From Candidatus Bathyarchaeia archaeon (GTDB taxonomy: Archaea; Thermoproteota; Bathyarchaeia; Bathyarchaeales; Bathycorpusculaceae), in NCBI GenBank assembly GCA_049512075.1, contig JBEKXL010000036.1, positions 1-10,104 of the forward strand: 10,104 nucleotides of DNA. The letters run 5' to 3'. How positions within the stretch are numbered: the first letter of the stretch is position 1; the number at the start of each line of letters is the position of its first letter. The translations under genes were made by a program, and so were the position numbers. This document shows, in pieces, positions 43 to 10,104 of the stretch. The notes under the pieces were generated by a model, which was given only the letters and a program-made list of their open reading frames with translations, made no database searches and was not told the DNA's origin.

Positions 43-205
43 CTTTTCTGTCTCTATCATATGGAGTAGGGTCATAACAGATAACCTTCACAAAACGCAA
101 TTCCTCATATTACGCGTCAGAATTTGAACGATTTGATTGTTAGTCCACAGTGCGCGCTAGAAGGAAGGATATTATCGGTTGACGCTTTGTTCAGCAGGGC
201 TTTTC

Positions 206-493
206 CTACTCTTTTGTAAGCGTTATTTCTATTGTTGAAACCATCCTTGCTCTGTTCTCGCCTTCTCTCGGTGGCATTTCCTCTGTTCCTATGGAGATTT
301 TGCTTACTTTTAGGTCTTTTAGGAAGCGATTTCTGGTTATTTCAGCCGCGTCAACTGCCGTGGTGATCGCTTGTCCTCTGGCCTTCAAGGTTATTTCTTT
401 AGCATTGCTCGCGGATAGGCTTGTGATAATCGCCATAACATAGTCCATTGGTGTTTTGCTTCCTATGAAAACTATTCCCGATTTTTCCGACAT
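206..493 (-). CDS. albA: Alba-family DNA/RNA-binding chromatin protein
   Basis: 95 aa with Alba hallmarks: VFIGSK..MDYV, ITLKARGQAITTAVDAAEI, ISIGTEE, VSTIEITL. Confidence 0.95.
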   Translation of the reverse strand: MSEKSGIVFIGSKTPMDYVMAIITSLSASNAKEITLKARGQAITTAVDAAEITRNRFLKDLKVSKISIGTEEMPPREGENRARMVSTIEITLTKE

Positions 494-595
494 TTTCCAT
501 CACATCTTTCATCATTGATTGTAACGTGTAACGTTGCTGTGTTCTTCTCGTCCTTCAACAACAGAACGCTACTGCCCCATAATGCGCAAACCTCC

Positions 596-602
596 TTATA
601 AA
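596..602 (-). promoter_or_regulatory. Probable TATA box of the alba promoter
   Basis: TTTATAA on the minus strand ~100 nt upstream of the alba ATG, implying a leader of roughly 80 nt. Confidence 0.5.
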
Positions 603-1060
603 CCGATTAAACAACAGAGCATCGTGAGGATATTTTCGTGCGGCTCCCTTGCCCCAGATTCCGGTTTTAGGCGCAGCATTCACTTCGCATTTAAGTGATG
701 CGTTATGATTCGGTGCAGAAAACTTGTATATGCCTTTTCAAACCTGCGCCTTTAAAAGCTGGCTATTTTTGCGAGAACGAAGTTGAAATTGCAGAATTTA
801 AGAGTTTTGACGTTTGCAAGATTTTTGGCTTCAGCGCGTGCATTCTTATAGCTTTCTTAGGATGGAAAGGGTTAATCGCCTTGAGCGCTACCAAGTAGGG
901 GAGCAAAAGAGCCTCAAAAAAGAGCTTGAAGAGGCCACATCTATTAGGGTGATATACAGGGGAAGCAGAGACTGGCGAATGGAAATTCGAGAGTGGTATT
1001 CCAGATATTCTCTTCTGGCGGAGTTCGTCTGCGCGCTGTCTAAACGGAGGCGCTTCAAAA

Positions 1061-1558
1061 CTGTTCATTGCGGATGACGAGACGCTAAAGAAGGTGGCCG
1101 CGTTGTTCGGAGAGGATGCTGTGAGAGTAGTTGAGGTCCTCAAAGGGGTTCACGAGATTACAGATAATGAGATAGCGGATAAAACCCAAATACGCCTCAA
1201 CCTGGTTCGCAAGGCAGTCTACAGGCTCTACGACCACTCCATCGGGGCCCTCAGGCGATGCCGCGACAAAGAAACAGGCTGGTTTGTCTTCAACTGGAGA
1301 CTCCAACCAGACCAACTGGAAGGCTTTATCCTAAACCAAAAGCGCCGTGTTCTCGAAAAACTGGAAACCCGACTTGAATACGAGAAAAGCCACGAGTTCT
1401 ACACCTGCCAAACGCTAGACTGCAAGCGATATCCCTTCGAGGAGGCGTTTGAGCTTCTCTTTAAGTGTCCCGCTTGCAACAAACCAATGATCCACATCAA
1501 CAACGACTTGAGTGCTGAAATCCTAACCAGAAAAATTGAACAAATAAAGGTTCTGTGA
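1061..1558 (+). CDS. tfe: Transcription initiation factor E alpha subunit (TFE), probably starting at CTG 1061
   Basis: Winged-helix part (ITDNEIADKTQIRLNLVRKAVYRLY, RDKETGWFVFNW) plus Zn ribbon (FYTCQTLDC..FEEAFELLFKCPACNKPM). The frame is open upstream of GTG 1094 to CTG 1061, with GGAGG at 1046-1050. Confidence 0.92.
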   Translation: MFIADDETLKKVAALFGEDAVRVVEVLKGVHEITDNEIADKTQIRLNLVRKAVYRLYDHSIGALRRCRDKETGWFVFNWRLQPDQLEGFILNQKRRVLEKLETRLEYEKSHEFYTCQTLDCKRYPFEEAFELLFKCPACNKPMIHINNDLSAEILTRKIEQIKVL

Positions 1559-1661
1559 GAGTTGAAATGTTAGAGAATTGTTCTATCCCGCATTTGCCAA
1601 GCATTACTGAAACCATTCTATCTTATGTTGTACCTTCATCAAAGAATGTAGGGGCTATTGA

Positions 1662-1798
1662 TTGAGAGATCCTGTGTGCGGCACTGTGCTCGACGAAAAA
1701 ACAGCAAAATTCAAGATAAATTTCTAGAGACATACTACTTCTGCTCTGCGAGTTGCAAGAAAAAATTCAAATGCCATCCAAAGAAGTTCGCTAAATAA
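1662..1798 (+). pseudogene. YHS/TRASH-type metal-binding microprotein, frameshifted
   Basis: TTG start gives MRDPVCGTVLDEKTAKFKINF* (TAG 1725-1727). A second frame from 1727 gives ETYYFCSASCKKKFKCHPKKFAK*. DPVCG...YYFCS..C is the YHS signature. Confidence 0.85.
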
Positions 1799-1923
1799 TT
1801 TACGCCTCAAATCTGCGCATGCATTCTAAGCTGTAGCAGTCAAATCTAACTACACAACACGGAGACTTTCAGCGGCTTCACCAAACTATCGTTTCCTTTA
1901 ATGTAAAGGCATCCCGAAAATGT

Positions 1924-1938
1924 GAAAAAAAGGAGAAT
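1924..1938 (-). terminator. Oligo-T terminator candidate for the lysine-rich microprotein
   Basis: TTCTCCTTTTTTTC-type pyrimidine run on the minus strand ~25-35 nt after the stop at 1961. Confidence 0.4.
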
Positions 1939-1960
1939 AACCTATATCTTTGTTAGCTCT

Positions 1961-2017
1961 CTACCTAGTTTTCTTTTTACTTCCTTTTTTCTTCTTTCCG
2001 GTTGGACTCTTAGACAC
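1961..2017 (-). CDS. 18-aa lysine-rich microprotein MSKSPTGKKKKGSKKKTR
   Basis: GTG start with GAGGT Shine-Dalgarno at 2028-2024, an (AT)n TATA-like element at 2054-2063 and a T-rich tract downstream. Confidence 0.6.
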   Translation of the reverse strand: MSKSPTGKKKKGSKKKTR

Positions 2018-2052
2018 GTCGAGACCTCAAATCTATAATATTCAGCGATTTC

Positions 2053-2064
2053 CATATATATATG
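2053..2064. promoter_or_regulatory. Palindromic TATA-like element CATATATATATG, possibly bidirectional
   Basis: Lies between the divergent microprotein gene (-) and the structured element (+). Spacing to the microprotein RBS fits an archaeal TATA box. Confidence 0.45.
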
Positions 2065-2132
2065 ATTTCGTATGCACTCGTTATCTTAACACATCATCCA
2101 AAATCTGTCCCAAACATGGTCATTAACAGTAC

Positions 2133-2176
2133 TTGAACCCAATTGGGTATGGGGACGGGCAGCCCCATTATCGGAC
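2133..2176 (+). repeat. Dispersed hairpin repeat, copy A
   Basis: 37/44 identical to the reverse complement of 4739-4782. Contains the palindrome ACCCAATTGGGT and the stem ATGGGG-acgggcag-CCCCAT (2149-2168). Confidence 0.9.
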
Positions 2177-2547
2177 CTGAACCCTTCTGAGCATAAGTAC
2201 GATGGAAGCCTAAACATTTCCAGGTATTAGTCCACCTGCGAAGCGTGCGCTCTCAGAGAAGTGACTTAGGTACAGGCAACTTGGAGAGCATATCCTGTTA
2301 CCAAGGACTCTTTCTAGGTGCCAACTTTCTTAAATGCCCCCAAGCTAGGCAAGCTTTACTCCTGCACGTTTCCTCAAAAGGAAAGAGAGGGTTTCCAACG
2401 ATCCAACCCTGTAGCAAACTGACAGGCACCAGTTGCATTTGTTGGATTGAACCGGGAAACCCATCCAAGGCTGAAGGGTTCCTAAATAAAAGTGTTCCTA
2501 AGAGCACGCTAATTCCCTCGAAACAGAGCTAGGTCTTCTTTCTTTTC
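2149..2547 (+). ncRNA. Candidate large structured non-coding RNA, family unassigned
   Basis: No convincing ORF. Many helices: 2179-2187/2473-2481, 2242-2248/2504-2510, 2265-2270/2497-2502, 2389-2396/2455-2462, 2400-2407/2441-2448, 2369-2374/2379-2384, 2203-2208/2217-2222. G-U pairs favour the + strand. Ends in a pyrimidine tract. Confidence 0.6.
2534..2547 (+). terminator. Pyrimidine-rich archaeal terminator candidate
   Basis: TCTTCTTTCTTTTC immediately after the structured region. Confidence 0.45.
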
Positions 2548-4738: not shown

Positions 4739-4782
4739 GTCCCATGATGGGGGTGCCCGTCCCCATGCCCAAATGGTTTAAA
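4739..4782 (-). repeat. Dispersed hairpin repeat, copy B (inverted relative to A, truncated)
   Basis: Minus strand TTTAAACCATTTGGGCATGGGGACGGGCACCCCCATCATGGGAC is 37/44 identical to 2133-2176. Similarity ends after GGAC. Confidence 0.9.
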
Positions 4783-5054
4783 CCCGATCTCTATGACCCT
4801 GCCCCCTACCAGGCTAGGGCAACCCCTTTTGTCGCTCATAAATAACTGCTCAGCCCCAAGTTCAGAGGCCCTCCAGGAATTCTCCATGGAACCCGACATG
4901 GCAAAATGGATGGCTTGGAACACGAGTGCAATTAAATTAGCCATGAGTCTTGAAGAAAGCATGAAACTACTAAAATAAGCCAAACACGCGTGTGCATATT
5001 TGATTTGAAGCCTAAATATGACTTGAATGTACAAGACGGTGGAGAGAATATTAG

Positions 5055-5336
5055 ATGGTTGGGTTTATGGCATCTTTACCTGCAAAGTGGGCAGAGTATT
5101 TGAAACGTTTAGCCGACGATCACGAAATTAACCTAAACAACGTGATCAGTGAACTGTGCGAATGGGCCTTTTCTGGTCCTGCGAGCAAGGAACAGTTTGA
5201 AGATTGGTTAGATGAGGCTTATCCGCCAAAAGGTGAAGCGGGAGGCAAAGCAAATGCTGCAAGAGAAGAAGCGGGCGAGATTGAAGAAGAAGAGGGAGAT
5301 GAAGCTGAAGAAGAATCCCACGAGCATAGAGATTAA
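5055..5336 (+). CDS. Hypothetical protein: ribbon-helix-helix-like N-terminus with an acidic C-terminal tail
   Basis: GGAG RBS at 5041-5044. FMASLPAKWAEYLKRLADDHEINLNNVISELCE fits a strand-helix-helix pattern, followed by a Glu-rich tail. Confidence 0.7.
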   Translation: MVGFMASLPAKWAEYLKRLADDHEINLNNVISELCEWAFSGPASKEQFEDWLDEAYPPKGEAGGKANAAREEAGEIEEEEGDEAEEESHEHRD

Positions 5337-5471
5337 AGTGTAGGTAAAGATCAAAGCGCAACAGCGTGATCCTAAGATAGTTTCATTATTTAGCAAGTTT
5401 TTTGTTTTGGAATGACCAGTGATGAGAGTTGAGCGTGCGAGGTGTGAAATCGGTCGAGCTGAAAAGAGCGT

Positions 5472-5729
5472 TTAGGTGCTAGTGACTATTTCTGCTCCTG
5501 CGGCTACAGGTCCTGATGTCGTGATTTTGATTCTTAAATGGTCTCCGGGCTTTGCGTTACCAACGAAAACTGGGAAACCCTTGATTCTGGCTATGCCTTC
5601 CCCTTGAGGGCTTGTTTCGATTATATCCACTTCGTATTCTTTTCCAGTCTCAACTGGGCAGTTCTCAACGCCTCTGCCACGTTTGCTCTTGGCATTTCTC
5701 GGGCTTCTTTTTCGCGGGCTCATTGGCAT
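5472..5729 (-). CDS. Stand-alone TRAM-domain RNA-binding protein with a basic N-terminal tail
   Basis: PVETGKEYEVDIIETSPQGEGIARIKGFPVFVGNAKPGDHLRIKIT...AEIV matches archaeal single-TRAM proteins. Confidence 0.92.
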   Translation of the reverse strand: MPMSPRKRSPRNAKSKRGRGVENCPVETGKEYEVDIIETSPQGEGIARIKGFPVFVGNAKPGDHLRIKITTSGPVAAGAEIVTST

Positions 5730-6002
5730 CTTCCTTTTTCTGCTTTTATGATGATATGATTATCGTCCCTCAGTGGCTTAAGTGTTCCGCATTTTACTGC
5801 TCGCGCTAACCCAATTGAAAGTGCAATAATCTATCTAAAGTCCATATTCAGGAACGGCCCCCAATCTTCTTTCGTTTGCAATTGAGACGAAAATTCAAAA
5901 CCCACATACCTCCAACAGAAGACATACGCCGAAGAGAAGAGAAACGCCTAAACAGTCACAGCAAAACAGAAAAAAGGGAAAGACGCGGGAGATATCTCCA
6001 CG

Positions 6003-6034
6003 CGATCCTGGGTTCAAATCCCAGCGGCTCCGCC
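6003..6034 (+). other. Orphan tRNA 3' portion (T arm + acceptor 3' strand)
   Basis: CTGGG-TTCAAAT-CCCAG T arm at 6008-6024 followed by CGGCTCC-G-CC. No GGAGCCG 5' acceptor strand or D arm at the expected upstream position. Confidence 0.75.
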
Positions 6035-6057
6035 TCTACACGATGTACGATTAACTG

Positions 6058-6185
6058 ATAAGGATCCCAAGTGGGCCAGCAGCCTTATGAGAATTTTGCC
6101 CGTCAAAGAGTTGCGGTAATAATCCGGGCCCGAACCCTTTTGGGTTTAATTCCCTAGAGGTCTAATCTCTTTTGGGTATGGGCTT
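6058..6185 (+). ncRNA. Diverged structured repeat, copy C, homologous to 2149-2233
   Basis: 6125-6185 aligns to 2172-2233 (38/62 identical, one gap, mismatches mostly transitions). Stem ATAAGG/CCTTAT (6058-6063/6083-6088) corresponds to ATGGGG/CCCCAT. Confidence 0.6.
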
Positions 6186-6348
6186 AGCTAGATTTGCAAC
6201 TAGGTTGTCGTGGGCTGAGCACAGAAAAAATCGAAGTGCTTGGTGGAGGGATACGTGCGCATTAGCCAACATCGACGCGCTTGTTTCGAAAGTTTAAAAA
6301 AACACCGCGCGTGCTACACCTTATCAATCGTTTTAGGGTTTTTCAAAT

Positions 6349-8263
6349 TCACGGCGCGGGCTTGCATGGTCTGTGAGGCGCCTGCCAAAAACTCTTTATT
6401 CGTTTGGCACAATCAGATGGGCTTCCCACGGTTATCATCTCTTTCGGGTAATAGCTTGGAAGTTGTCGTTTGATGTGAGGTTGGGTAATCCGTTCATCCA
6501 ACATCACTATGCACCCTCTGTCTTTTGCTGACCTGTGGGCACGTCCGCAAGCCTGAACTAGCCGCAGTATGGCTGGGGTCAAATAATCATAAGTTCTCCC
6601 ATTCCCCGGGAACTGTTGTTCAAGATAATCTATGAGTGATTCCTGTAAGCATCCCACGTTGCATATGGCAATCCTATGGTTACAACACATTTGAGGATGT
6701 TTTCAGGGTAGTCCATTACCTCGCTCAGTTTAGCTCCCATTACTCCATACAGAACGTAGTTGGACGAACTTGTCAGCTTCTCAATCACGTCCTTTCTCTT
6801 CGTGTTCGACTCTTCCATGATTATCTTTCTGTCTGTTTTTGTCAATGATACGACCTTGTGCATTAGTCCGTAGCTCGTGAAGACAGCCATATTGCCTTGA
6901 CTGGCGTTGGATATTGCTTCAACGTAGCTTTTCGACTTTTCAAGCATCAAATCGGTTCTTCTCTTGAACTCTGACGACACATCCTCAGCAGCTAGGATAA
7001 CTCTGTTCTCAGGTGGAAAAGAAGGGTCAAACTCTGTCAGACAAACGTTGCTCGGCTCATAGAGCATCAAATCCCTGTAAACGGTTGGAGGAGATAGAAA
7101 ACCGCTCATGAGGATGGTTCCTCGTGCTTCTCTCAGAACTGGATCAACGATCTCTCTTCCATCGAAACTTCTGACTTCCAAAGCAACCCTGTTCTTCTGA
7201 TCTCTTTCGATCAGATGCATATACTTCGGCTCAACGTTCTTGAAGAATCTCTCCATGAACATGCCAATTCGATAATTGTAACTTGAAATTCTCTCAGAAC
7301 CAGATTCAAGTCGCTTCTCTTTCACAAATTCGCCATATTCTTGAAGTGTTGCGGCAGCTTCAAGACCAGATACGTCGTTGTGAGCCAGAAACAAGTCACT
7401 GAGTTCCTGGAGGTTAAGCTGTCTAAGATCTTCGATTCTTAATGTCTGCCGAGCATGCTGAAACACCTCTTCCAAGAGAACGTTTAGACATTCTCTAATA
7501 GATCCGACTGACTCGTGTTCGAAAATTCCAGTCTCCCTTAGGGCTCCTTCTACTGTACTCTCAGTCAATTGATCAGAAAGTAATTCTCTGGCGAATGTTG
7601 GAACATTGTGAGCCTCGTCCACGATTAAAAAGACCTTCGAAAGACCGACTCCGAAGCTCTTTAGTATTGATTCCCTAATCCTCGGATCGAAGACGTAGTG
7701 ATATGTTCCAAGAAAAACATTCACCTTGGGGAGAATCCTCTTCAAGGCTTTGCGAGCACAGAATCCTCGTCCAGACATGAACTCAACCGATTCCTCTGAC
7801 GCAAGAATCCTTTGGGCGCAATCCAAAGCCAATTCCTCCGCCTCTTTTTTCCCTCTGGAGATATTCATATAGAATTTACAGAAGGGCTTGATGGAAGACT
7901 CGCCGTTATCCTTCAGTCTCTTGCACTCTTCAAAAAAGCCAACGTAGGAGAGATCGCCTTTTGACTTCAACGGACACATGTCTTGTTTGCTAAAGAAAGA
8001 GACACTGTTAATGTCTCTCGAGAGTGTTCTCAACTCTTTGAGGTATATGTGCAGCTGGCTTCTGGTTCTGAAGCAGATCATCAATCTGTTTTCCTCGAGC
8101 TGAGGCAAAACTGCAAGCAACGACGCAAGAGACTTGCCTATTCCACATGGAGCACTTCCCACGAAAACCTCTTTGCTTCTAAGTGCCTTTGCTGCCTCTG
8201 AATAAGCGCGCGCGCTTGACTCAAGACATAAATGCGTCTGTCTTCTTGCAACCCTAATATCAT
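6349..8263 (-). pseudogene. XPD/Rad3/DinG-family Fe-S 5'-3' DNA helicase, frameshifted
   Basis: Walker A APCGIGKS, four Fe-S-type Cys (MCP, ECK, FCK, FCA), DEAH, motif III MSG, and motif VI QACGRAHRS in a second frame after a 1-nt deletion at ~6645. A probable second 1-nt deletion at ~8198 joins an N-terminus from ATG 8263 (start uncertain). Confidence 0.9.
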
Positions 8264-8509: not shown

Positions 8510-8762
8510 TCCATTTTTTCTCTTAAGTGCCATTATGCAAAGGGTGCATCAAGTGAAGCCAAAGAAAAAGATCGTAGACGGAATACCTCTATGAGAGTGC
8601 TTTCTCGATCATATTGGCTATGCGAAGACTGCCATCAGCGCGCGTATGTGTCTTAAGTGTTACGGTGTAAGGACTCTATCAAATGGTAATGCGTATGCTA
8701 AACGTTAGGGCATTCCTCAAAGGACTTCAATAACTATAGGCAGGTATGCCTGGCAGTTAAGC

Positions 8763-8769
8763 TATATAA
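8763..8769 (+). promoter_or_regulatory. Probable TATA box for the SSB-TBP operon
   Basis: TATATAA ~90 nt upstream of ATG 8861. Confidence 0.5.
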
Positions 8770-8860
8770 GTGATGTTGAGAATACTGATATGCGCGTTCC
8801 AGTTCTATTATTTTAGCGATGGATTTGCGCGTCAAAAACAACAGAGTGGAAACAAGTTAG

Positions 8861-9523
8861 ATGGCGAAACATATTTGGAGAGGTAGAGGCAGGCCTCCGA
8901 GCATGTATTCATACAAAGATGGAAGGATTCTGGAGAACCTTGCCAGAATCGCAATGCTGCATAAGGTTGATGCGAGTGAATTTTTCAATCGCATTGTGGA
9001 AGCTTGGAATCACGAAGGGTCAGAATGTGAGCAGTTGGTTATAGAATGTCGTAAGAGGACGAAGAATTCAGCGATTTTTCTCTTCACCACCGGTTGTAAG
9101 ATTGTAGCTCAATTTCCAATATCGATTAGCATCTTGCAAGGAAAGAATCAGCTTGAAAGCTACACGAAAACCATTTTTGCCAGAATTTCCTCGGTCAAGA
9201 ATTTTGAGGGTGTAAACTCTAAGATTGGGGACTTGAAAGTTGGAATGAAAAAGGTCAGCCTCAAAGCAGAGGTGCTTGAGATTCCAGAATCTAAAATCGT
9301 TTACACGAGATACGGAACAACGGCTTGTATATCAAACGCGCTCATCAGAGACGAAACTGGTTCAATGAAAATGAGTTTATGGAACCAGCAGATCAACACG
9401 GTGCATAAGGGCGACGTAATTGACGTCAAAAATGGTACAGTAGCTTGGTTCAGCGGTGAAAGGCAGTTGCGACTGGGGAGAAGCGGAAGCTTAAGCGTCA
9501 TCGAATGCGCGCTCGCACCATAG
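8861..9523 (+). CDS. OB-fold single-stranded DNA-binding (SSB/RPA-like) protein with an extra N-terminal domain
   Basis: C-terminal KIGDLKVGMKKVSLKAEVLEI...ALIRDETGSMKMSLWNQQINTVHKGDVIDVKNG...FSGERQLRLGRSG is a typical archaeal SSB OB fold. Confidence 0.9.
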   Translation: MAKHIWRGRGRPPSMYSYKDGRILENLARIAMLHKVDASEFFNRIVEAWNHEGSECEQLVIECRKRTKNSAIFLFTTGCKIVAQFPISISILQGKNQLESYTKTIFARISSVKNFEGVNSKIGDLKVGMKKVSLKAEVLEIPESKIVYTRYGTTACISNALIRDETGSMKMSLWNQQINTVHKGDVIDVKNGTVAWFSGERQLRLGRSGSLSVIECALAP

Positions 9524-9535
9524 GAAGCGGTGTTA

Positions 9536-10093
9536 ATGCCGAAGACTAAAGCCATAATAAACATTCAAAACGTCGTTGCCGCTGCCACCTTAAACCAGAA
9601 AGTTGACTTAAACGCGGTCGTGAAGAGTTTTCCAGGGGTTGAATATCGGCCAGAACAGTTTCCAGGCTTGGTGTTTAGGCTTAAGAGACCGAAGACAGCC
9701 ACGCTGATTTTCAATTCTGGAAAAATGGTCTGTACAGGCGCCAAATCAGAGCAGGAAGCGCGCAGGGCTGTTATGACAGTTGTTAAAGAGTTGAAGAAGG
9801 GCGGAATAATCATCCTCAGCAAGCCGGACTTGAAGGTTGTGAACATGGTTGCTTCTGCAAGCCTAGGCGGAAAAATAGATTTGGAAGCAGTTTCCACGCT
9901 TGGAAAAACGATGTATGAGCCGGAGCAGTTTCCAGGCTTGATCTACAGGATGGACGAGCCCAAAGTGGTTATACTCGTATTCGCAAGCGGGAACCTTGTC
10001 TGCACCGGAGCCAGAAGAGAACAGGACGTCTATGACGCCGTGCACAAGCTTCACGAAAGATTGGAGGAACAAAACCTCATATTCTACGAATAA
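9536..10093 (+). CDS. tbp: TATA-box-binding protein
   Basis: Two TBP repeats: IQNVVA..YRPEQFPGLVFRL..LIFNSGKMVCTGAK and NMVAS..YEPEQFPGLIYRM..LVFASGNLVCTGAR. ATG 9536 follows GGTG; GTG 9530 is the alternative start. Confidence 0.97.
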   Translation: MPKTKAIINIQNVVAAATLNQKVDLNAVVKSFPGVEYRPEQFPGLVFRLKRPKTATLIFNSGKMVCTGAKSEQEARRAVMTVVKELKKGGIIILSKPDLKVVNMVASASLGGKIDLEAVSTLGKTMYEPEQFPGLIYRMDEPKVVILVFASGNLVCTGARREQDVYDAVHKLHERLEEQNLIFYE

Positions 10094-10104
10094 AAACTTC
10101 ACAC

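What the first reader, a model, noticed from the sequence alone, without database searches (positions are those of the whole stretch)
6058..6185. Diverged second copy of the RNA's 5' domain shows compensatory base changes
Seen: 2172-2233 and 6125-6185 align with 38/62 identity, and 16 of the 22 substitutions in the two ungapped blocks are transitions. Helices survive: TGGAAG/TTTCCA becomes TAGAGG/CTTTTG with all 6 pairs kept (loops CCTAAACA and TCTAATCT). GGAC/GTCC becomes GGGC/GCTT, and the upstream ATGGGG/CCCCAT becomes ATAAGG/CCTTAT with the loop still ending GCAG. GAACCCTT, TAA and GGTAT are invariant. Translation is not conserved in the frame I checked. Retention of G-U pairs points to selection on a + strand RNA fold. 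Inference: a multicopy, unassigned archaeal RNA motif (ribozyme, riboswitch-like module or protein-binding scaffold).
Basis: partly seen in the sequence, partly recalled or inferred. Interest (0 to 1): 0.85.

Follow-up and report, generated by a model that had tools for sequence, protein, structure and literature searches.

The report
Decayed tRNA-Pro-end recombination junction copy
The stretch is a real but worn second copy of a roughly 116-base DNA module that imitates the end of a proline tRNA gene and marks where accessory gene cassettes are spliced into these archaeal genomes; it is probably not a structured RNA gene.

Summary
2172-2233 and 6125-6185 share 38 of 61 aligned columns. A profile built from copy A plus four relatives, without copy C, finds 6126-6184 at E=1.7e-8.

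The RNA reading is not supported. Rfam has no match. Fold energies equal shuffles (z +0.15 and -0.38).

Copy A belongs to a composite module, 2129-2244. It has a hairpin arm, a 12-15-nt copy of the tRNA-Pro 3' end, and two more hairpin-like units. The arm plus core occurs in 57 of 151 family genomes. At seven or more loci it lies 0.8-11 kb downstream of an intact tRNA-Pro gene, in the same orientation, with cargo genes between. Homology between strains breaks at its core, at 2167 and 6091.

Best reading: att-type junctions of cassettes and islands inserted into tRNA-Pro. C is a decayed one. The enzyme is unproven; a tyrosine integrase lies in or beside two such loci.

Earlier notes of this scan describe similar tRNA-end-like sites in other Bathyarchaeia genomes.

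The parts
2129..2155 (+). Copy A, unit 1: arm hairpin (GTACTTGAACCC / AATT / GGGTATGGGGA)
   Evidence: Seed of model R1. R1 hits window 2127-2170 at 52 bits. It is 84% complementary to 4739-4782.
2156..2170 (+). Copy A core: CGGGCAGCCCCA + TTA, a copy of the last 12 nt of tRNA-Pro(TGG/CGG)
   Evidence: Identical to the 3' ends of the tRNA-Pro genes on C14 and C32. Homology with G004:C13 (98% over 1470-2167) stops after 2167.
2171..2244 (+).
   Evidence: R2 hit 2168-2242 at 65.9 bits. 87% identical to the sequence directly after tRNA-Pro in G022. 93% identical over 2131-2244 to G080:C4, with similarity ending at 2244.
4739..4787 (-). Copy B: arm plus core (GGGCACCCCCATCA), inverted relative to A
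   Evidence: R1 hit at 36.5 bits, E=1.7e-6; inverted repeat I1.
4798..4826 (-). 29-nt fragment of the 5' part of tRNA-Ser(GCT), next to copy B
   Evidence: 100% identical to C17:46774-46802, inside the ARAGORN tRNA-Ser gene.
6007..6034 (+). Orphan tRNA-Leu(AAG)-like 3' end (T arm plus acceptor strand), 24 nt before copy C
   Evidence: 96.4% over 28 nt to the 3' end of tRNA-Leu on C22. ARAGORN finds no tRNA gene in the window.
6058..6090 (+). Copy C, decayed arm and core (core-like CAGCAGCCTTATGA at 6077-6090)
   Evidence: Read directly from the sequence; 13 of 20 positions match the R1 consensus by my own hand alignment, which was not scored. A DNA contig of run X6 is collinear up to 6091 and then carries 1648 other letters in place of 6092-8212.
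6126..6184 (+). Copy C, units 2 and 3 (R2 module): the finding proper
   Evidence: R2 (built without C) hits it at 28.1 bits, E=1.7e-8. Aligned with five homologues.

Best explanation
6058-6185 is a worn copy of a composite DNA module of about 116 nt. The intact copy is at 2129-2244.

The module has three parts:
- an arm: a 12-nt sequence, a variable 4-nt centre and a partly complementary right arm;
- a 12-15-nt copy of the 3' end of tRNA-Pro;
- two further hairpin-like units.

I read it as an att-type site-specific recombination junction of gene cassettes and islands that insert into the 3' end of tRNA-Pro genes in this Bathyarchaeia family.

Inferred mechanism: a circular cassette carries arm-core-units 2/3. 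Crossover within the shared core joins units 2/3 to the tRNA gene, which keeps its body but swaps CCA for TCA/TTA. The arm plus the displaced native tRNA end (often with CCA) is left at the far boundary. Tandem or repeated events give arm-core-unit junctions such as copy A. Old ones decay into copies such as C.

Shown: the homology, the module anatomy, its placement relative to tRNA-Pro and cargo genes, and the breakpoints at the core.

Inferred: the crossover itself and the enzyme. The enzyme is most likely a tyrosine integrase, often acting in trans.
For: 1. C belongs to the module family.

2. The core equals the tRNA-Pro 3' end. 12 of 53 aligned arm-core copies continue with CCA.

3. tRNA-Pro is followed 0.8-11.2 kb downstream by an R1 copy in the same orientation on the same contig at seven or more loci: G013:C160, G108:C104, G000:C14, G007:C7, G023:C9, G013:C101 and G023:C16.

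4. The intervals hold accessory cargo and mostly no recombinase: a MazE/PIN pair, a GNAT acetyltransferase, and an AAA_14 ATPase plus a weak (below cut-off) HEPN-like match. Clusters of same-orientation copies flank P-type ATPases, an Mrr-WD40 protein and a cohesin-dockerin protein.

5. Only 4 of 31 tRNA-Pro 3' ends are followed at once by a hairpin unit. All four read TCA or TTA where 20 of the 31 read CCA.

6. Breakpoints sit at the module:
- G004:C13 shares 1470-2167 at 98% and diverges after the core.
- Its other flank matches G000:C7 instead.
- Run X6 replaces 6092-8212, starting 4 nt after C's core-like A at 6087.
- The two C7 copies share the left flank and diverge just after the 4-nt centre.
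- Many R1 hits lie at contig ends.

7. A tyrosine integrase lies inside the G023:C16 tRNA-Pro-to-R1 interval. A 39%-identical one (E=4e-54) sits beside tRNA-Pro(GGG) and an R1-like copy on G023:C5. A homologue on G114:C102 is about 0.9 kb from an R1 hit.

8. Published principle: islands in tRNA genes regenerate the target and leave a displaced fragment at the other end (PMC4383910, abstract in the listing). Archaeal elements mostly use the 3' part of tRNA genes, with att sites as short as 8 bp, and form tandem arrays (PMC6563490, passages).
Against: - No recombinase lies near most copies. None of the 23 PF00589 matches in G000 is within 10 kb of its ten R1 copies, and none lies in the arrays examined in five other genomes.
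- No clean empty-site against occupied-site pair was found. At G000:C14 against G002 the 3.1-kb difference is not bounded by the motif. The flank search for G013:C160 found no empty site.
- The direct repeat is short, 9-13 nt.
- The arm is conserved across genera at about 90% although both flanks vary. Selection on an RNA or ssDNA fold could also cause this.
- + strand G-U pairs are frequent: columns 80/95 give GU in 16 and GC in 8 sequences; columns 12/42 give GU in 24.
- A and B are inverted, not direct.
- C is not detected by R1. Its arm and core are read by eye only.
Confidence: 0.6

Rival explanations
1. A structured small RNA on the + strand. Units 2/3 would be a tRNA-linked RNA that always begins just after a tRNA-Pro 3' end, real or mimicked. 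It would be released by tRNA 3'-end processing, and C would be a diverged paralogue.
For: - The R2 module starts 0-4 nt after the discriminator A, both behind real tRNA-Pro genes and behind the mimic.
- Many + strand G-U pairs would be A-C mismatches on the other strand.
- The module is 93% identical between different genera.
Against: - No covariation beyond shuffles.
- Fold energies are no better than shuffles, and the minus strand folds as well or better.
- Predicted folds differ between homologues.
- No Rfam family matches.
- C is absent from all relatives searched.
- This idea does not explain the R1 copies 0.8-11 kb behind tRNA-Pro with cargo between, the CCA/TYA swap, or the breakpoints.
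- No RNA-library contig covered 2129-2321, but contigs cannot show absence.
Confidence: 0.12
2. Landing pads and target duplications of Cas1 (casposase) transposons, as earlier notes of this scan proposed for other Bathyarchaeia genomes. The tRNA-Pro T loop would guide insertion, a 14-15-bp duplication would follow, and cassette ends would carry a spare pad.
For: - The A. boonei casposase inserts beside tRNA-Pro. It needs TCAAATC in the T loop and makes a 14-15-bp duplication (PMC5137440 and PMC6614799, passages).
- The native tRNA-Pro here carries TCAAATC just before the duplicated CGGGCAGCCCCA.
- At G013:C160 the 15 nt after TCAAATC match the far-end copy in 13 of 15 positions (my count on the sequence).
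- By my tally, 18 of about 27 genomes with casposase-like Cas1 also have R1, against 57 of 151 overall. This is confounded by kinship and genome size.
Against: - No Cas1 match lies within 10 kb of an R1 match on the same contig; the closest is about 10.1 kb, on G107:C26.
- Over all Cas1 genomes the overlap with R1 genomes is 23, with 21 expected.
- 0 of 8 casposase-like loci carry an R1-like unit. The terminal inverted repeats found at 3 of them are unrelated in sequence.
- No hairpin units lie near the four Cas1 loci of G000.
- Cassette ends are not inverted repeats at G013:C160.
- The arm lacks TCAAATC on the + strand.
Confidence: 0.12
3. Sites of a serine recombinase. The 12 + 4 + 12 bp geometry of the arm resembles resolvase/invertase crossover sites (recalled from general knowledge). 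Crossover would be at the 4-nt centre.
For: - A 607-aa protein with Resolvase (E=1e-27) and Recombinase domains ends about 30-40 nt before an R1 copy on G007:C8.
- The two C7 copies diverge right after the 4-nt centre.
- Half units (centre plus right arm) directly follow some tRNA genes.
Against: - PF00239 has no match in G000.
- It matches in only 9 of 151 family genomes, 3 of which carry R1.
- The 4-nt centre varies among copies, which does not fit a fixed crossover dinucleotide.
Confidence: 0.05

Closest known systems
Genomic islands and integrative elements in tRNA genes, with tyrosine integrases (Islander principle, PMC4383910; archaeal cases in PMC6563490)
   Same: An intact tRNA gene sits at one end and a displaced copy of its 3' end, as a direct repeat, at the other. 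Cargo is accessory. Arrays are tandem. The att core is short. An integrase lies inside one island (G023:C16).
   Different: Most intervals are small (0.8-4.4 kb) and carry no integrase. The site includes a conserved composite of about 116 nt with three hairpin-like units, shared by at least 21-37 genera. Copies also occur away from tRNA-Pro.
Integrons (attI/attC cassettes); archaeal integrons reported in 10.1101/2022.02.06.479319 (search listing only)
   Same: Short cassettes without a recombinase, each ending in a hairpin-forming site. Copies lie in the same orientation in clusters. The site usually lies 3' of the upstream gene. On G023:C5 an integrase gene lies on the opposite strand beside the primary site.
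   Different: The primary site is a tRNA gene. The site sequence copies a tRNA end and does not resemble the attC consensus as I recall it. IntI-type integrase features were not tested. The arrays are short.
Family 2 casposons targeting tRNA-Pro (AciBoo-C1; PMC5137440, PMC6614799)
   Same: Same target gene and sublocation (T loop to 3' end). The duplication is of similar length.
   Different: No Cas1, no terminal inverted repeats and no polymerase in or near the cassettes examined.
Tycheposon-type cargo arrays at tRNA genes in Prochlorococcus (10.1101/2020.12.28.424599, search listing only; the name and details are recalled)
   Same: Cargo elements, some without their own integrase, stacked at tRNA genes and flanked by partial tRNA copies.
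   Different: Bacterial. No conserved multi-hairpin site is known to me there. Not compared by sequence.

Membership tests
Any Rfam RNA family | Covariance-model match at or near the gathering score | tested here: not met
   Whole window at E<=1: 3 weak matches, none in 2127-2244 or 6058-6190, and all far below their gathering scores.
Structured non-coding RNA (generic) | Compensatory changes beyond what column composition gives | tested here: not met
   28 sequences: 80.5% paired against 79.9 +/- 0.8% shuffled; score 0.123 against 0.120, with 174 of 500 shuffles as high. The family hairpin model gives 71.9% against 71.7%.
Structured non-coding RNA (generic) | Fold more stable than shuffled sequence | tested here: not met
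   z = +0.15 (A +), -0.73 (A -), -0.38 (C +), -0.47 (C -). Homologues range from -0.27 to -1.66.
Structured non-coding RNA (generic) | Discrete transcript | not testable with these tools
   Only Logan contigs were available. They cannot show starts, ends or strand.
tRNA-gene integrative island (tyrosine integrase) | Intact tRNA at one end and a displaced 3' fragment as a direct repeat at the other | tested here: met
   Seven loci with tRNA-Pro and an R1 core in the same orientation, 0.8-11.2 kb apart.
tRNA-gene integrative island (tyrosine integrase) | Integrase gene within or beside the island | tested here: inconclusive
   Present on G023:C16 (inside) and G023:C5 (beside). Absent from the small cassettes, from within 10 kb of the G000 copies and from arrays in five genomes.
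tRNA-gene integrative island (tyrosine integrase) | Empty site in a close relative with the breakpoint at the core | tested here: inconclusive
   Breakpoints at the core are seen at 2167 and 6091. No empty tRNA-Pro site was matched to an occupied one.
Casposon | Cas1 gene and terminal inverted repeats bounding the element | tested here: not met
   No Cas1 within 10 kb of R1 hits. 0 of 8 Cas1 loci carry the unit. The ends at G013:C160 are asymmetric.
Casposon | 14-15-bp target duplication next to the tRNA-Pro T loop | tested here: inconclusive
   13 of 15 positions match at G013:C160 (my count). Only 9 nt are shared at G000:C14.
Integron | IntI-type integrase next to attI, and attC sites with R''/L''-L'/R' boxes | not tested
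   Only general PF00589 searches were run. No attC model was available.
Serine-recombinase site | Serine recombinase encoded with the sites | tested here: not met
   0 matches in G000. 9 of 151 genomes have a match, 3 of them with R1. There is one adjacent case.

The most novel reading that the evidence does not exclude
An integron-like capture system of Bathyarchaeia. Small gene cassettes without a recombinase each carry a site of about 116 nt with several hairpins that imitates the tRNA-Pro 3' end. A host- or island-encoded integrase moves them in trans into tRNA-Pro genes and into each other's sites. This would spread toxin-antitoxin, transporter and nucleic-acid-binding genes across at least 37 of 70 genera sampled. 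The site might act in folded single-stranded form, which would explain the + strand G-U pairs.
Probability: 0.25. Interest if true: 0.7.

Novelty: new variant of a known kind. Interest (0 to 1): 0.4.

Why it matters
If the reading holds, the two "RNA domain" copies are landmarks of how this archaeal family shuffles accessory genes. The window's extra Alba, TFE, TBP, SSB-like and TRAM genes are among them; they are multicopy and scattered in relatives.

The module gives a 40-116-nt search handle (models R1 and R2) for mapping cassette boundaries in Bathyarchaeia metagenome assemblies. It also explains why contigs break there.

It corrects a likely false RNA-gene call. It also narrows the enzyme question: tyrosine integrase, Cas1 or serine recombinase. 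Earlier notes of this scan answered that question differently on other genomes.

Tried and rejected
- **T arm of a minus-strand tRNA.** The arm's reverse complement reads GGGTTCAAGTCC, but no copy has a matching T stem (my reading). ARAGORN calls no tRNA there. Rejected.
- **Coding conservation.** The four variable bases are contiguous, not at third codon positions. Rejected.
- **C/D-box or K-turn readings of the arm.** The boxes lie on different strands or in the wrong register (my own reading, no tool). Dropped.
- **Terminal inverted repeats of a 2.65-kb transposon (A/B pair).** Most clusters in other genomes are direct repeats. I saw no flanking duplication. G004 shares the motif but diverges after the core instead of at the outer tip. 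Considered unlikely.
- **Native, universal trailer of tRNA-Pro.** Only 4 of 31 tRNA-Pro ends carry the hairpin. Rejected.
- **The roughly 400-nt RNA as one unit.** Similarity to G080 ends at 2244. In runs X24 and X10, 2322/2346 onwards is joined to the end of a TBP gene. 2349-2496 recurs alone on C32 and in five relatives. So it is a mosaic.
- **Expression.** The one RNA-library run (X24, share 0.05) gave contigs over 2322-2505 and 5353-6147 only. Contigs cannot show transcription, and no cover over 2129-2321 proves nothing.
- **Empty-site searches** and self-repeat scans around the G000 Cas1 loci led nowhere.
- **Literature.** No paper held Bathyarchaeota + integrase + tRNA-Pro. Searches listed nothing on this module.

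Full report
**The observation.** It has 38 identical columns of 61, plus one gap. I count 23 substitutions, 16 of them transitions. A word-based BLAST of 6030-6300 against the 2.73-Mb genome did not report it at E<=10. A permissive local alignment scored 16, against 10.0 +/- 1.3 for shuffles; 3 of 1000 shuffles and 0 of 1000 random genomic chunks reached that score.

The decisive test was a profile. I found homologues of the A segment in other genera: G108, G022, G138 and G003. I built a sequence-only model, R2, from A plus these four, without C. R2 hits 6126-6184 at 28.1 bits, E=1.7e-8 in the window. Genome-wide the E-value is 4.5e-6 and the hit ranks second. So C is a true, diverged copy.

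**What the copies belong to.** The window is a whole 10.1-kb contig (C36) of a genome with 86 contigs. Earlier notes call the organism a Bathyarchaeia.

It recurs in the genome and in relatives with unrelated flanks on both sides. [quoted passage not shown] 12 of 53 aligned copies go on with CCA.

A covariance model of the motif, R1, hits 57 of 151 family genomes in 37 of 70 genera. Copy number is 1-10 per genome, and ten in this genome.

In G080, a different genus, arm, core and R2 together are 93% identical to window 2131-2244. Similarity ends at 2244. That defines a composite module of about 116 nt.

C repeats the same layout in worn form:
- a core-like CAGCAGCCTTATGA at 6077-6090;
- a 35-nt spacer;
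- the R2 units at 6126-6184.

R1 itself does not detect C.

**Is it an RNA?**
- Rfam finds nothing at E<=1 in either region.
- Minimum free energies are ordinary. A + strand: z=+0.15. A - strand: -0.73. C + strand: -0.38. C - strand: -0.47. Two homologues give -0.27 to -1.66. The predicted folds differ from one homologue to the next.
- On 28 homologues the figures are 80.5% against 79.9 +/- 0.8%, with 162 of 500 shuffles as high. The covariation score is 0.123 against 0.120.
- The alternative family-hairpin model does no better: 71.9% against 71.7%.
- Sliding the partners by one column lowers pairing to 62-65%. So the helices can be drawn, but only because the columns are conserved. There is no compensatory signal.
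- G-U pairs are frequent on the + strand. That keeps a single-stranded role possible.
- C has no counterpart in 40 relatives. All listed matches to 5960-6320 fall within its first 93 bases, that is the tRNA-like T arm and a purine-rich stretch.
- Window 5922-6370 has no match in four same-genus genomes.

**Context.**

(a) In G022 an intact tRNA-Pro gene is followed at once by a sequence 87% identical to window 2156-2215. The same holds in G108, G000:C32, G004:C17 and G023:C16. Only 4 of 31 tRNA-Pro 3' ends have such a unit directly behind them. Those four read TCA or TTA after the discriminator, where 20 of the 31 read CCA.

(b) At seven loci an intact tRNA-Pro gene is followed by an R1 copy in the same orientation:
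- G013:C160, 0.8 kb;
- G108:C104, 1.1 kb;
- G000:C14, 2.0 kb;
- G007:C7, 2.9 kb;
- G023:C9, 3.0 kb;
- G013:C101, 4.4 kb;
- G023:C16, 11.2 kb.

On G000:C14 and G007:C7 the gene upstream of the tRNA is the housekeeping nrdD, so the tRNA sits at a conserved chromosomal place. The DNA between tRNA and R1 differs between loci. It holds a MazE/PIN pair, a GNAT acetyltransferase, an AAA_14/DUF4143 ATPase with a weak (below cut-off) HEPN-like match, or unknown ORFs.

(c) Elsewhere R1 copies cluster 1-6 kb apart in one orientation. They flank P-type ATPases, an Mrr-WD40 protein and a cohesin-dockerin protein. In 30 loci the nearest upstream ORF is co-oriented in 15 of 22 cases, and the nearest downstream ORF is opposed in 21 of 28.

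(d) Breakpoints:
- G004:C13 is 98% identical to window 1470-2167 and diverges immediately after the core. Its other flank matches G000:C7.
- A DNA contig of run X6 follows the window to 6091, four bases after C's core-like A. It then carries 1648 other letters in place of 6092-8212.
- A contig of the RNA library X24 is collinear over 5353-6147 and then runs on unlike the window.
- The two C7 copies share their left flank and diverge after the variable centre.
- Many R1 hits lie within 200 nt of contig ends.

(e) The window also holds a 29-nt exact copy of the 5' part of tRNA-Ser(GCT) next to copy B. A tRNA-Leu-like 3' end lies 24 nt before C. Such leftovers of tRNA-targeted integration accumulate in regions of this kind.

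**Mechanism.** The simplest account is the established one for islands in tRNA genes. The element carries a copy of the target's 3' part. Recombination regenerates the gene and leaves the displaced native end at the far junction (PMC4383910, abstract seen in the listing). Archaeal examples, short att sites and tandem arrays are described in PMC6563490 (passages).

Here the element-borne site would be arm-core-units 2/3. Copy A has exactly this form. So it is either a cassette-cassette junction or an unrecombined site. C is an older junction of the same kind.

**The enzyme is not settled.**
- No PF00589 integrase lies within 10 kb of the ten G000 copies or in the arrays of five other genomes.
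- On G023:C16 an integrase lies inside the tRNA-Pro-to-R1 interval.
- On G023:C5 a 39%-identical one (E=4e-54) sits on the opposite strand beside tRNA-Pro(GGG), with an R1-like copy 270 nt downstream.
- Relatives of this integrase are common: 99 of 151 genomes at E<=1e-15. One lies 0.9 kb from an R1 hit on G114:C102. Others sit beside tRNA-Leu genes.

Most cassettes would then be moved in trans, or be remnants.

**Rivals.** Earlier notes of this scan ascribed similar tRNA-end-like sites in other Bathyarchaeia genomes to Cas1 transposons.
- For that view: the A. boonei casposase targets tRNA-Pro through TCAAATC and makes a 14-15-bp duplication. At G013:C160 13 of 15 positions after TCAAATC are repeated (my count).
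- Against it: no Cas1 lies within 10 kb of an R1 copy. 0 of 8 casposase-like loci carry the unit. The four Cas1 loci of G000 lack it. Cassette ends are not inverted repeats.

A serine recombinase ends 30-40 nt before one R1 copy on G007:C8. But the family has no match in G000 and matches in only 9 of 151 genomes.

**Verdict.** The observed homology is confirmed. The RNA interpretation is not supported by covariation, energy or conservation of C. The best-supported reading is a decayed tRNA-Pro-end recombination junction, a new variant of a known kind.

Noticed in passing
window 2349-2513: A 150-165-nt element is 95% identical to G000:C32:2056-2204 and 79-93% identical in five relatives. In runs X24 and X10 the end of a TBP gene (10094/10101) is joined directly to 2322/2346, so this piece travels with TBP paralogues and not with the hairpin module.
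   Followed up: partly
window 188-1588, 4852-5337, 8741-10104: The Alba, TFE, 93-aa ORF, SSB-like and TBP segments each match several scattered places in the four same-genus genomes (for example six or more TBP-like places in G004). The window looks like a mosaic of multicopy cassettes.
   Followed up: partly
G000:C10:494; L084 (G004:C17) after tRNA-Pro: Hairpin arms are cut short by alternating GCGCGC tracts (GGACTTGAACCC followed by GCGCGCGC). A GCGCGC tract also sits at the G000:C14 / G002 junction. Other notes on this genome flag these tracts as junction markers.
   Followed up: no
L070 3435-5258 (G007:C8): A single 607-aa ORF combines Resolvase and Recombinase domains with a C-terminal MobA-like nucleotidyltransferase domain, directly before an R1 copy and a P-type ATPase cassette.
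   Followed up: partly
G000:C1:295944-298381: ARAGORN's tRNA-Leu(TAG) with a 2338-nt 'intron' contains a tyrosine integrase (296073-296966). It is an element integrated in the tRNA gene, and its 3' flank carries a half hairpin unit (TTTTGGGTCAAGTCCCGCAATTC) like the one behind tRNA-Pro(TGG) on C32.
   Followed up: partly
L067 5460-5600 and 11380-11620 (G156:C1); L072 6640-6800 (G051:C30); L068 5300-5440 (G136:C1): A larger conserved composite. A Pro-type unit ending in GGGCAG is followed by a conserved spacer of about 60 nt (CTCTGAACCAG...) and a second hairpin unit with a different tRNA-like tail. It recurs in three genera.
   Followed up: no
L071 (G136:C1:770000-784000): Behind tRNA-Gly(TCC) lie three same-orientation hairpin units whose tails resemble the tRNA-Gly 3' end (GGGTCCAAATCCCGGCG...). 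The same arm seems to be used with other tRNA ends.
   Followed up: no
L118 (G021:C24, whole 17.5-kb contig): A Cas1-bearing contig ends in 163-bp terminal inverted repeats (99% identical). It is probably a complete Cas1 transposon, with ends unrelated to the hairpin module.
   Followed up: no
window 5962-6023: The purine-rich stretch plus the palindrome CGCGGGAGATATCTCCACGCG before the tRNA-Leu fragment matches many places in relatives at 75-83% identity. It is another dispersed repeat.
   Followed up: no
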